A DNA stretch of 64,000 bases from assembly GCF_050320075.1 (NCBI RefSeq), contig NZ_CP190018.1. One strand, given 5' to 3'. Source of the DNA: Escherichia coli (GTDB lineage: Bacteria > Pseudomonadota > Gammaproteobacteria > Enterobacterales > Enterobacteriaceae). This document shows positions 28,353-30,754 of the stretch, in pieces. A program made the position numbers and the translations under genes. Below the pieces are notes generated by a model. That model ran no database searches. It saw nothing but the letters and a program-made list of their open reading frames with translations, and was not told the origin of the DNA. Every line of letters starts with the position of its first letter. The stretch's first letter is position 1.

Positions 28353-30754
28353 TTAATACTCTCCCCCATTTGCGCATCAGTTAATTCTTTATGCCAGAGA
28401 CGAAGATTTCTCAAATGGCCGAATAGATGACGTGTCCCTGATGTGGCTTGACCTCCTATTCTAATAAAGGTCCGCGTTTTTACGCCCGTCCATTCCGTTT
28501 CAATGGTTTTAGTAGCCTCACCGTTAGAAACTACTCGTTTAGTACCGTCAGAATAAATATTAAAACCACCAATGAATTTTCGAACATCCGTTCGACCAGT
28601 AAACAAACTAGAAACGTAACTACTTGTCGACGCTTTATAAGTTTGCATATAAAGCTGACCGTAATATCTCTCGGTTGTGTTAAAAGCGTATGTGATTGAC
28701 TCAATAGGCGGCACACCAGAAAAATCAAAAATACGCGGTGCTACATTAGGGGGAATATCGCCCCAATTCCTGTTAACCTCGACCAAACAAGTAAGCGGTC
28801 TGTTATAAATGTTGTTTTCGGTCGGGATCGTAACCATATCACTCGCACGAGTCGCCGCCGTCGCTCCTGATATAATAAAAGATGATACACAAGGCCCATC
28901 TTCTACTTGTGGGGTGGCCAGATAAATATAGTCACCAGATACGGTTGCCCCGCTCTGCTTAGGAGAATACTGTATCTGAGAGCCTATTTTTAACTCCCCA
29001 TCAATTGCCTGAATTGTTGCCTCTGCAAAAATCCATCCGGTAGCTTCGTCCTTTCTGACTCTCGCTGTAATCCTTGAGGCAGCACCGCCTGTCATATTAA
29101 TTTCAAGCGTTTGTGTATCAATATACGCATCACCAAGAAAAGTTGTTGCGCTACCGTCATATTTATCAAACCGGATACGCAACCTTACCTGCAGTTCTGT
29201 TTTAAAACGACATGAGGTTGTCACGTATTTATTATCGCCTGAGACATCAACTGACTTTGTTGCAGCAATTGATGCCATATTAATGGCTGAGGTTTGCCCA
29301 ATCAGAGAATCGTTACAGACAAACTTTCCATAGGTAAAACCAAAACTATCCGTCCCGGTTTCGGGAACATCCATATTTGACGATCGCCCCCAACTGGCAG
29401 GGCTTTCCGAATTGAGCATGTAGTTCGCTCTTTGCCCCTCAATAAGCAGGCCATCACGTTCAAATCGTGGCTCGTCAATGGCAGCCTCTGTCAGCACACC
29501 AGATTTATTAATATAGGTTGCTTTCGATGCGCGTTTAAACTTTACAACCTTATCGCCAGGCATCGTTATTTCATCATCACCAATAACAATCTTTTTATAT
29601 GACGGCGAAAACCCCGTAATCATATCCAGTGAATCGTTAAACGGTATCCACACATCAGGCAACGGCTGCAAAACTTGTTTATACGGCTCCGCTGCCTGGC
29701 TTGCATACTCTCTGGCTGCGTCTTCACTTGCTTTAGCTGCTGTCTGGCTTGCTGCCGATGCTTGCGCCGAGTTCGCCGCTGTAGTCTCGCTCGCCTTTGC
29801 GTTGTCTTCACTGGTTTTTGCAGCTCTTTGACTGTTGGCTGATGCCGTGGCAGAAGCAGCCGCCGCGCTTGCAGAACCAGCTGCGGCACTCTCGCTTTGG
29901 GCCGCTGCATCCTGACTGTTTTTCGCCGCAGTTTCGCTGGCTTTGGCATTCGTTTCGCTGGTCTTCGCTGCAGTCTCGCTTGTCTTTGCGTTGGTTTCAC
30001 TGGTTTTTGCAGCTCTTTGACTGTTGGCTGATGCCGTGGCAGAAGTAGCCGCCGCACTTGCAGAACTGGCTGCCGCTCTCTCGCTTTGGGCTGCTGCATC
30101 CTGACTGTTTTTTGCTGCGGTAGCGGAGTTTGCTGCGGCACTCTGACTCGATTCTGCAGCCACCTCGCTATTTTTCGCATTAGTTTCGCTGGTCTTTGAA
30201 GCTGTCTCACTCGCTTTTGAGTTGTTTTCTGATTTTTTGGCTGCAGTCGCGGAGTTTGCCGATGCAGTCTGTGAGGCCGCTGCCGCCTGTGCGCTGTTAG
30301 CTGCATTCGTTTCTGAGGTTTTCGCCGCGTTCTTCGATGATGCCGCTGCAGTTTCGGATGTCTTTGCCGCCGCTGCGCTCTGAGAGGCGGCTTCAGCGTT
30401 GCGTGCCGCTTCTTCCACCATTTCCTGAAAACGGCGCAATGCCTCCGGCATGACATCATCTTCCGTCATGGCACCGAGAAAATCATTCAGCGTCCCCGGA
30501 CTGGAACCTTCATAGACGGTAATGGTCCCGGCATGTGAAGGCGGAAAACCTTCAACCAGCAGGATGACGCTGTACTGGCCATACTCAACGTCCATACTGT
30601 AACGCCCGGCTTCATCAGGATTTTCAGAGGCCACCGTGTTCACCAGTACCGTGGTGCTGTTACGCTTTGCCTTCAGTTGAATAGTGCAGTTCTGTATTGG
30701 TTTTCCCGCACCATCTTTCAGCACACCTGAGATTTTTACTGCTGCCATATCCAC
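28349..30754 (-). CDS. stf: side tail fibre protein (Stf-like): lambda-type N-terminus, Ala/Ser/Thr-rich repeat shaft, divergent C-terminal domain
   Basis: 801 aa; N-terminus [39 protein letters not shown]...[16 protein letters not shown] matches lambda Stf; central [16 protein letters not shown] repeats; C-terminal 450 aa unlike lambda. Confidence 0.85.
   Translation of the reverse strand: [801 protein letters not shown]
29770..30140. repeat. tandem direct repeat of 189 bp (about 90% identical copies) inside stf
   Basis: tcactggtttttgcagctctttgactgttggctgatgccgtggcagaag at 29808 recurs at 29997; flanking sequence also repeats. Confidence 0.85.

What the first reader, a model, noticed from the sequence alone, without database searches (positions are those of the whole stretch)
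29770..30140. Recent 189-bp (63-codon) tandem duplication in the Stf shaft
Two adjacent copies about 90% identical at the DNA level lie inside the Ala/Ser/Thr-rich repeat region. Such in-frame tandem repeats can expand and contract by recombination and change fibre length. The same repetition produces the spurious Arg/Gln/Lys-rich 279-aa alternative-frame ORF (29620-30459).
Basis: seen in the sequence. Interest (0 to 1): 0.35.

Follow-up and report, generated by a model that had tools for sequence, protein, structure and literature searches.

The report
Nine-heptad repeat in tail-fibre shaft
The side tail fibre gene of an E. coli lambda-like prophage carries a real in-frame 63-codon repeat in its coiled-coil shaft; the repeat is old and widespread rather than recent, and it sometimes recombines to give a fibre about 9 nm shorter, which is ordinary behaviour for this kind of protein.

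Summary
Window 29777-29923 and 29966-30112 (minus-strand stf gene) are 147 nt, seven heptads, and 91.8% identical at a spacing of 189 nt. Shuffling the heptads gives 61.5 +/- 2.8%. There are about 1.8 copies, not two full ones.

The repeat lies in an uninterrupted array of 34 heptads (x-x-Ser-x-x-Ala-Ala). This array is the trimeric coiled-coil "PCoil" shaft that follows the PF08400 collar domain of lambda-type Stf fibres.

"Recent" is not supported:
- 50 of 71 related alleles have the same two-unit length.
- In 44 of those 50 the two unit cores are only 73-82% identical.
- The window allele is one of six in which the first core is of the second-unit type, probably through gene conversion. It also carries a foreign six-heptad patch.
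- 48 of 48 closed E. coli genomes with this allele keep the same length.

Contraction is supported. 736-aa alleles match the window gene at all but 0-3 other bases and lack exactly 189 bp. Their remaining unit is a unit1/unit2 chimera, with four junction patterns, most often inside the only 50-bp identical run. No three-unit allele was found.

The 279-aa alternative-frame ORF is a by-product of composition. Coiled-coil length changes in multiples of seven are already published for this fibre family.

The parts
28349..30754 (-). stf-type side tail fibre gene: 801 aa from GTG at 30754, 799 aa from ATG at 30748, which is the start RefSeq proteins use
   Evidence: the ORF listing. PF08400 and phrog_1419 hits. 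799-aa database proteins at 100% identity. The gene lies downstream of J (31480-34959) and lom (30813-31412).
30356..30742 (-). N-terminal collar (tail attachment) domain, PF08400
   Evidence: Pfam hit at aa 5-133, E 2.8e-65. Residues 3-95 align to the solved Ur-lambda Stf N-domain 9e7m/9mgh, E 2.5e-49.
29693..30406 (-). Array of 34 uninterrupted heptads (x-x-S-x-x-A-A): the coiled-coil shaft (PCoil)
   Evidence: Heptad layout. Position 3 is Ser in 32/34 heptads, position 7 is Ala in 28/34, position 6 is Ala in 26/34. AF2 monomer predicts helix 102-352 at low confidence. The literature describes this region as a trimeric coiled coil.
29966..30112 (-). Repeat unit 1 core (heptads 15-21: [49 protein letters not shown])
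29924..29965 (-). Heptads 22-23 ([14 protein letters not shown]): the remainder of the 189-nt unit 1, part of a 21/42-nt K(T/A)SET sub-array. One database variant (P0084, 785 aa) lacks them.
   Evidence: TRF rows at 29915-30004. P0084 sequence.
29777..29923 (-). Repeat unit 2 core (heptads 24-30: [49 protein letters not shown])
   Evidence: It differs from unit 1 at 12 nt (4 synonymous and 6 non-synonymous codons).
29996..30045 (-). Unit-1 copy of the only long perfectly identical run (50 bp). Its unit-2 partner is 29807-29856. This is the junction site of the commonest one-unit derivative.
   Evidence: Runs between diagnostic sites are 20, 14, 2, 5, 0, 10, 9, 50, 0, 10, 1, 9, 5 nt. Coordinates verified. 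Junction pattern 1111111|22222 in L098-L100 and L104-L107.
29807..29856 (-). Unit-2 copy of the 50-bp identical run
30113..30238 (-). Heptads 9-14: an in-register foreign patch specific to this allele lineage (3-13 of 21 nt differ from other lambda-type alleles). It replaces the 5' part of what is unit 1 in other alleles.
   Evidence: Per-heptad mismatch table. The patch occurs at 94% identity in 33 other records, for example in a fibre gene on the 106-kb plasmid NZ_OZ369344 that has a different N-terminus.
28844..29446 (-). Distal beta-rich domain (NCBIfam NF048003, phage head spike fiber domain), the presumed receptor-binding part
   Evidence: NCBIfam hit at aa 435-635, E 6.9e-12, above the cutoff. 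AF2 pLDDT 76-93 for residues about 450-620.
29620..30459 (-). 279-aa Arg/Gln/Lys-rich ORF in the +1 frame of stf: a by-product, not a gene
   Evidence: No Pfam or PHROG hit. It has no stops because only 1 of 238 shaft codons has T at position 2. The frame is interrupted in 13 of 50 related alleles. Variable alignment columns by stf codon position are 51/42/151.

Best explanation
The feature is a higher-order repeat of nine heptads (63 residues, 189 nt) inside the alpha-helical, trimeric coiled-coil shaft of a lambda-type side tail fibre. This shaft connects the PF08400 collar domain on the tail tip to a distal beta-rich receptor-binding domain. The two-unit architecture is old and is the usual state in this fibre family. 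In most alleles the two unit cores have diverged to about 75-80% identity. In the window allele the first core is of the same sequence type as the second (92% identical). This most likely arose by gene conversion or a misaligned exchange between units. The allele has in addition acquired a six-heptad patch from another fibre lineage. Because all units are whole heptads, exchanges keep the coiled-coil register. The two cores act as substrate for homologous recombination or replication slippage that removes exactly one unit. That would shorten each chain by 63 residues, about 9 nm of coiled coil out of about 35 nm. What is shown: the repeat, its register, its distribution, the chimeric one-unit derivatives, and the spurious alternative ORF. 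What is inferred: the coiled-coil trimer for this particular protein, the conversion event, the 9-nm figure (63 x about 0.15 nm per residue), and any effect on adsorption or host range.
For: Repeat and significance. Gene identity: PF08400 and phrog_1419, a solved Ur-lambda StfN homologue, and synteny J-lom-stf. Coiled coil: 34 gap-free heptads with Ser at position 3 and Ala at positions 6/7. AF2 predicts helix 102-352. In Ur-lambda Stf, residues 102-393 are modelled as a proximal coiled coil of a trimeric fibre (PMC12617516). The Ala/Ser-rich PCoil after PF08400 is alpha-helical by CD and trimeric, with lengths differing by multiples of seven (PMC3368898). Age and distribution: 50 of 71 alleles share the two-unit length, 12 are 15 heptads shorter, 2 are 9 heptads shorter, and 7 are 13 residues shorter with another distal junction. 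Inter-unit core identity is 73.5-82.3% in 44 alleles and 89.8-93.9% in 6, including the window. The window unit-1 core is 93% identical to the unit-2 core of phage 2G7b but only 78% to its unit-1 core. 48 of 48 closed genomes with the allele keep the 1101-bp span. Mosaicism. Contraction: seven 736-aa protein clusters are 99-100% identical to a synthetic one-unit version. Their DNA equals the window gene minus 189 bp, with no private differences inside the unit and 0-3 mismatches elsewhere. At the 12 diagnostic sites they show four chimeric patterns: 1111111|22222 in 7 loci read, including a 5.12-Mb contig, plus 222222222222, 11|2222222222 and 22222|11|22222. A chimera with no private changes can only derive from the two-unit allele.
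Against: No expansion to three units was seen, so only one direction of change is documented. The one-unit alleles are rare: about 22 contigs against more than 1,200 for two-unit proteins, judged from the contig counts. None is among the 48 closed RefSeq genomes. Most come from draft assemblies, so assembly collapse cannot be excluded for the three rare junction patterns, two of which need exchanges within runs of 10 bp or less. Gene conversion versus inter-allelic unequal exchange cannot be distinguished, because all second-type units are roughly equidistant at 88-94%. The AF2 helix has low confidence (pLDDT 40-55), and the trimeric state was not modelled. No functional data link shaft length to adsorption.
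Confidence: 0.8

Rival explanations
1. A recent, lineage-specific tandem duplication of 189 bp that has not yet had time to diverge.
For: The two cores are much more alike (92%) than in most related alleles (about 76-80%). This shows that some event more recent than the original duplication affected this allele.
Against: There are 12 differences in 147 nt, including 6 amino-acid changes. A fresh duplication would copy all 189 nt, but heptads 22-23 have no counterpart after unit 2. The same 36-slot architecture is present in 50 of 71 alleles from many phages. The allele is identical in 45 closed genomes from humans, animals and water. The unit-1 core is closer to the unit-2 core of another phage (93.2%) than to its own partner (91.8%).
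Confidence: 0.05
2. The repeat is evolutionarily static, and the one-unit 736-aa alleles are assembly artefacts: two similar units collapsed in short-read assemblies.
For: Most one-unit loci come from draft contigs of 3-160 kb. The commonest junction lies in the longest shared run (50 bp), where a de Bruijn graph with small k could also jump. Two rare patterns would need exchanges in very short identical runs. None of the 48 closed RefSeq genomes is one-unit.
Against: The main pattern occurs in at least 7 loci read, from independent NCBI and ENA samples. These include a 5.12-Mb contig and k=141 metagenome contigs, and they fall in two backgrounds differing by one substitution elsewhere in the gene. 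A 50-bp shared run is shorter than the final k of usual assemblers. If collapse were systematic, far more than about 2% of contigs should show it. One-unit alleles of other lineages occur in a complete phage genome and a closed chromosome.
Confidence: 0.12
3. The similarity is only what a low-complexity, Ala/Ser-rich periodic sequence gives by chance.
For: The whole shaft has 21-nt periodicity, and heptads at other offsets are 45-64% identical.
Against: The observed 91.8% compares with 61.5 +/- 2.8% (maximum 72.1%) for 500 heptad shuffles. The repeat boundaries are sharp. The same unit structure is conserved in register in dozens of alleles.
Confidence: 0.01
4. The 279-aa Arg/Gln/Lys-rich ORF (29620-30459, minus strand) is a real overlapping gene that constrains the repeat.
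For: It is a long ORF with an ATG start. It stays open in 37 of 50 related alleles.
Against: It has no family hits. Its openness follows from the near absence of T at stf codon position 2, in 1 of 238 shaft codons. It is interrupted in 13 of 50 alleles. Sequence variation concentrates at stf third positions (151 versus 51 and 42 columns), as expected if only the stf frame is under selection.
Confidence: 0.02

Closest known systems
Side tail fibre Stf of phage Ur-lambda (collar domain, linker, proximal trimeric coiled coil; PDB 9e7m/9mgh; PMC12617516)
   Same: The N-terminal domain is about 90% identical over residues 3-95 to the solved collar domain. It has the same gene position after J and lom. 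A long helical heptad region follows a short linker, corresponding to the proximal coiled coil at residues 102-393 of Ur-lambda Stf.
   Different: The distal half differs. It has a beta-rich NF048003 'head spike fiber' domain in place of the lambda hinge, gp37-like distal coiled coil and OmpC-binding tip. No tfa follows; instead there is a 93-aa ORF and a 346-aa fibre protein with an S74 chaperone domain. Among alleles carrying this distal junction, two shorter shaft forms of 21 heptad slots lack the nine-heptad units. One is a lambda-like form (phages Lambda_2E9 and Lambda_4C10). The other keeps the KTSET-type heptads (IMG/VR loci L061-L070).
PCoil domain of EHEC prophage collagen-like tail fibre proteins EPclA/EPclB (Ghosh et al. 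2012, PMC3368898)
   Same: [quoted passage not shown] It is alpha-helical by CD and trimeric. Its lengths differ between proteins by multiples of seven. The same rule is seen here: -105, -63 and -14 residues.
   Different: Those proteins continue into collagen triple helices and PfC domains, whereas this one continues into a beta-rich distal domain. The paper reports length classes. It does not report the nine-heptad higher-order unit, its homogenisation, or chimeric deletion junctions.
Klebsiella phage capsule depolymerases 7vyv/7vz3/7lzj (N-terminal region)
   Same: There is a short stretch of similar heptads ([22 protein letters not shown]) matching residues 151-203.
   Different: The match is weak (E about 0.005) and composition-biased. 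The rest of the protein is unrelated. I did not check whether that stretch is ordered in the solved structures.

Membership tests
Lambda-type side tail fibre (Stf) | N-terminal PF08400 collar domain that docks on the tail tip | tested here: met
   PF08400 E 2.8e-65, aa 5-133. Ur-lambda StfN 9e7m E 2.5e-49.
Lambda-type side tail fibre (Stf) | Gene located after J and lom in the tail module | tested here: met
   J at 31480-34959, Lom (PF06316) at 30813-31412, stf at 28349-30754, all on the minus strand. The order is the same in 2G7b, Tritos, PhiR46_1 and others.
Lambda-type side tail fibre (Stf) | Distal gp37-like region plus a downstream tail fibre assembly gene (tfa) | tested here: not met
   The distal domain is NF048003. 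The downstream genes are a 93-aa ORF without family and a 346-aa S74-chaperone fibre. The protein therefore shares the lambda Stf anchor and shaft but not its tip.
PCoil / trimeric alpha-helical coiled-coil shaft | Continuous heptad periodicity with small residues (Ala/Ser) at two core positions spaced 3 and 4 apart | tested here: met
   34 heptads without stutter. Ser at position 3 in 32/34 and Ala at position 7 in 28/34.
PCoil / trimeric alpha-helical coiled-coil shaft | Alpha-helical secondary structure | tested here: inconclusive
   The AF2 monomer gives helix 102-191, 201-277 and 292-352, but with pLDDT 40-55. Experimental CD exists only for a homologous PCoil.
PCoil / trimeric alpha-helical coiled-coil shaft | Trimeric assembly | not testable with these tools
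   Only monomer prediction is available. Trimers were shown for Ur-lambda Stf and EPclA in the literature.
PCoil / trimeric alpha-helical coiled-coil shaft | Length differences between homologues are multiples of seven residues | tested here: met
   Differences of -105, -63 and 0 residues in 64 of 71 alleles. The remaining 7 differ by -13 and have a different distal junction. P0084 differs by -14.
Copy-number-variable tandem repeat (recombination-prone, VNTR-like locus) | Copy number differs between otherwise near-identical sequences, with junctions inside the repeat | tested here: met
   One-unit alleles have 0-3 other mismatches and chimeric junctions. Caveat: they are mostly from draft assemblies.
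Copy-number-variable tandem repeat (recombination-prone, VNTR-like locus) | Both expansion and contraction occur, at high frequency | tested here: not met
   No three-unit allele was found. 48 of 48 closed genomes are unchanged. One-unit forms make up about 2% of contigs.
Pfam Phage_fiber_2 repeat (PF03406) | Match to the PF03406 profile | tested here: not met
   No hit at E <= 0.01.

The most novel reading that the evidence does not exclude
The nine-heptad unit could work as a length cassette. Recombination between the two cores would continually produce a minority of prophage copies encoding fibres about 9 nm shorter. A lysate would then contain virions with two fibre reaches, which could help adsorption to hosts with different O-antigen or capsule thickness. 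The prevalence of the two-unit form and the repeated homogenisation of the units would then reflect selection to keep the switch recombination-competent.
Probability: 0.1. Interest if true: 0.5.

Novelty: new member of a known kind. Interest (0 to 1): 0.22.

Why it matters
It matters only modestly. It gives a clean, sequence-level example of how heptad-register repeats let a phage fibre change length and swap modules without disturbing the coiled coil. It also shows the junctions where this happened. The practical value is for annotation and for fibre engineering. The alternative-frame ORF should not be called a gene. The 189-bp length polymorphism can be mistaken for misassembly. The heptad array offers in-register points for building chimeric or length-tuned Stf fibres. 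It does not open a new biological question, because length variation of this coiled coil in multiples of seven was already published.

Tried and rejected
1. Tandem Repeats Finder missed the 189-nt period because there are under two copies. The repeat had to be shown with the repeat finder and a custom period scan.
2. The first protein search with the native protein listed only 799-aa proteins plus one of 785 aa. It could not reveal one-unit forms, because a 63-residue deletion drops the score below the 120 listed rows. Synthetic one-unit and three-unit queries were needed.
3. The idea that the window allele arose by simple duplication of a one-unit ancestor was rejected. Heptads 22-23 have no counterpart after unit 2, and the one-unit alleles are perfect chimeras of the two units.
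4. I tried to decide between intra-allelic gene conversion and inter-allelic unequal exchange using unit-to-unit distances. All second-type units are about equidistant, so this stays undecided.
5. The search for the donor of the heptad 9-14 patch found it only in this lineage and, at 94%, in fibre genes of a 106-kb plasmid family. The direction of transfer is unknown.
6. The AF2 monomer model has low confidence in the shaft, as expected for an obligate trimer, so no fold search was run on it.
7. Pfam PF03406 and a weak SMC hit were not pursued. The SMC hit is far below its cutoff and reflects coiled-coil composition.
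Full report
**Observation.** The region lies inside an 801-aa ORF on the minus strand (28349-30754; 799 aa from the ATG at 30748). The repeat finder reports a single long direct repeat: 29777-29932 versus 29966-30121, 156 nt, 90% identical, spacing 189. A scan of all periods from 3 to 499 over 29600-30460 gives 189 as the best period. It is the only one with a local identity above 0.9 (0.913 over 150 nt). Other multiples of 21 reach 0.51-0.64. In the reading frame of the gene the repeated blocks are heptads 15-21 (30112..29966) and 24-30 (29923..29777). They share 135 of 147 bases, and the boundaries are sharp. Shuffling the order of the 34 heptads 500 times gives a best seven-heptad block identity of 0.615 +/- 0.028 (maximum 0.721), against 0.918 observed.

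Two refinements apply. There are about 1.8 copies, because heptads 22-23 (29924-29965) have no counterpart after unit 2, and whole 189-nt units are only 81% identical. Tandem Repeats Finder reported only the 21/42-nt sub-periods at 29915-30004.

**What the gene is.** The protein has the PF08400 prophage tail fibre N-terminal domain (E 2.8e-65, aa 5-133) and matches PHROG 1419 end to end. Residues 3-95 align with the solved collar domain of Ur-lambda Stf (9e7m/9mgh, E 2.5e-49). The gene follows J (31480-34959) and lom (30813-31412). It is followed by a 93-aa ORF and a 346-aa fibre protein with an S74 chaperone domain. The distal part carries the NCBIfam NF048003 'head spike fiber' domain (aa 435-635), which AF2 models confidently as a beta structure. 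The window region is 100% identical to E. coli 2013C-4282 and 44 other closed genomes.

**The shaft.** From ARNAEAA (30406) to REYASQA (29693) the protein reads as 34 heptads with no stutter. Position 3 is Ser in 32 of 34 heptads, position 7 is Ala in 28 (Ser in 6), and position 6 is Ala in 26. The AF2 monomer model predicts helix for residues 102-352, with low confidence as expected for a chain that should be part of a trimer. Two papers describe this region in homologues. In Ur-lambda Stf, residues 102-393 form the proximal coiled coil of a trimeric fibre attached through a collar domain and a flexible linker (PMC12617516). In EHEC prophage fibres the Ala/Ser-rich 'PCoil' after PF08400 is alpha-helical by CD and trimeric, and its lengths differ by multiples of seven (PMC3368898). 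The 189-nt unit is exactly nine heptads, so it is a higher-order repeat of that coiled coil. One unit corresponds to 63 residues. At roughly 0.15 nm per residue this is about 9 nm of a shaft of about 35 nm (inference from standard coiled-coil geometry).

**Distribution and age.** I laid out the heptad arrays of 16 annotated phage and prophage alleles and of 80 IMG/VR loci. Among the 71 alleles that share the EALRRF...PLPDVW frame:
- 50 have exactly the window's shaft length.
- 12 are 15 heptads shorter. These fall into two types: a lambda-like shaft (Lambda_2E9, Lambda_4C10) and a KTSET-type shaft (L061-L070).
- 2 are nine heptads shorter (phage IdasGreatGrand and strain MSB1_4I).
- 7 are 13 residues shorter and have a different distal junction.
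- None is longer.

In the other two-unit alleles the repeat spans heptads 11-21 versus 20-30. In 44 of the 50 two-unit alleles the cores differ clearly, as AGSATSA AGSATAA versus [14 protein letters not shown], with 73.5-82.3% identity. In six, including the window, both cores are of the second type, with 89.8-93.9% identity. In strain Rb-50 the units 11-19 and 20-28 are 97.4% identical. The window's first core is 93% identical to the second core of phage 2G7b but only 78% to its first core.

The window allele also differs from all lambda-type alleles in heptads 9-14 (30113-30238), by 3-13 of 21 nt per heptad, while heptads 1-8 and 15-36 differ by 0-4. That patch occurs at 94% identity in fibre genes of a 106-kb plasmid family, behind a different N-terminus.

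The picture is an old duplication, homogenised in some lineages by gene conversion or misaligned exchange, in a gene that is mosaic at heptad resolution. 'Recent' is therefore not supported. The copies differ at 12 nt (4 synonymous and 6 non-synonymous codons), about as much as alleles of different phages differ. In addition, 48 of 48 closed genomes with at least 98.8% identical alleles keep the 1101-bp span.

**Does it expand and contract?** A search with the native protein listed only 799-aa proteins, apart from partial sequences and two annotated from the upstream GTG (801 aa), plus one of 785 aa that lacks heptads 22-23. That ranking cannot show 63-residue deletions, so I queried with synthetic versions. 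A three-unit query (862 aa) returned no protein longer than 801 aa among the best 120. A one-unit query (736 aa) returned seven clusters of 736 aa at 99-100% identity.

Their DNA equals the window gene minus exactly 189 bp, with 0-3 other mismatches. Where checked (L098-L100), 1 kb upstream and up to 1.3 kb downstream show 0-3 mismatches. At the 12 sites that distinguish the two cores they are clean chimeras without private changes:
- 1111111|22222 in seven loci, among them a 5.12-Mb contig and two k=141 metagenome contigs.
- 222222222222.
- 11|2222222222.
- 22222|11|22222.

The commonest junction lies in the only long identical run between the copies, 50 bp at 29996-30045 and 29807-29856. Chimeras with no private differences can only derive from the two-unit allele, so contraction by recombination or slippage between the copies is documented.

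Three caveats remain. These alleles are rare, at roughly 22 contigs against more than 1,200. None is in the closed RefSeq set. Collapse in short-read assembly cannot be ruled out for the rare patterns.

**The alternative-frame ORF.** The 279-aa ORF (29620-30459, minus strand) is the +1 frame of stf. It has no family hits. In the shaft only 1 of 238 codons has T at position 2, so TAA, TAG and TGA cannot arise in that frame. The frame is broken in 13 of 50 related alleles. Variable alignment columns fall 51/42/151 on stf codon positions 1/2/3. It is a by-product of heptad composition, not of the 189-bp duplication as such.

**Comparison and verdict.** The protein shares the anchor and shaft of lambda Stf but not its tip or tfa. 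It meets the tested features of the published PCoil coiled coil. The finding is a real but ordinary feature: a higher-order heptad repeat in a known kind of fibre shaft. Its length polymorphism in multiples of seven was already described. The new elements are the nine-heptad unit, its homogenisation in a few lineages, and the chimeric deletion junctions. No evidence links shaft length to function. That link, and any switch-like role, remain speculative.

Noticed in passing
L097 (NZ_OZ369344.1 13177-20302), fibre gene at about 3480-5384: A 106-kb E. coli plasmid carries a fibre gene annotated as a partial pseudogene. It shares the heptad 9-14 patch (94%), the two units and the distal domain with the window gene. 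In the same frame, with no intervening stop over about 230 upstream codons, it continues 5' into a different, non-PF08400-like sequence. It may therefore be an intact fibre with another anchor, possibly on a phage-plasmid.
   Followed up: partly
L036 and L051 (IMG/VR loci), stf ORF ending about 25 codons after the shaft: Two related alleles are truncated to 391-393 aa by a frameshift just after ...[9 protein letters not shown]/AF, near the SPSYKK codons. This would leave collar plus coiled coil without a distal domain, reminiscent of the stf frameshift of laboratory lambda.
   Followed up: no
P0084 (785 aa); corresponds to window 29924-29965: One database protein of this lineage lacks exactly heptads 22-23 ([14 protein letters not shown]). 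This is a two-heptad slip in the K(T/A)SET sub-array that would make the two cores directly adjacent (period 147 nt). It comes from a single 12-kb contig.
   Followed up: partly
L008 (phage PhiR47_1) and L055-L060: Seven alleles have a shaft 13 residues shorter and, where read (PhiR47_1, L008), a different distal shaft end (…EDAADPASVPPLPDIW). In PhiR47_1 the second unit has only eight heptads, with [14 protein letters not shown] fused to AGSATAA. The other six (L055-L060) were grouped by length and motif counts only.
   Followed up: partly
window 28349-28352 and 30748-30754: By coordinates, the stf stop codon overlaps the start of the downstream 93-aa ORF by 4 nt (ATGA arrangement). The longest ORF starts at a GTG two codons upstream of the ATG that database proteins use.
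   Followed up: no
L016 (E. coli GF4, NZ_CP172217.1 626300-631398): In this strain the homologous stf is annotated in several fragments, with small opposite-strand 'hypothetical proteins' inside the shaft. It is a likely pseudogene, and it illustrates how the stop-poor repeat region attracts spurious gene calls.
   Followed up: no
window 27021-28061 (minus strand): A second fibre protein of 346 aa with a C-terminal S74 intramolecular chaperone domain lies two genes downstream of stf. In some relatives it is replaced by a 234-aa protein (IdasGreatGrand, PhiR49_1), so the distal fibre set is itself modular.
   Followed up: no
window 29797-30048 (plus strand): An 83-aa opposite-strand ORF lies entirely within the repeated region. 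I took it to be another by-product of the composition and did not analyse it further.
   Followed up: no
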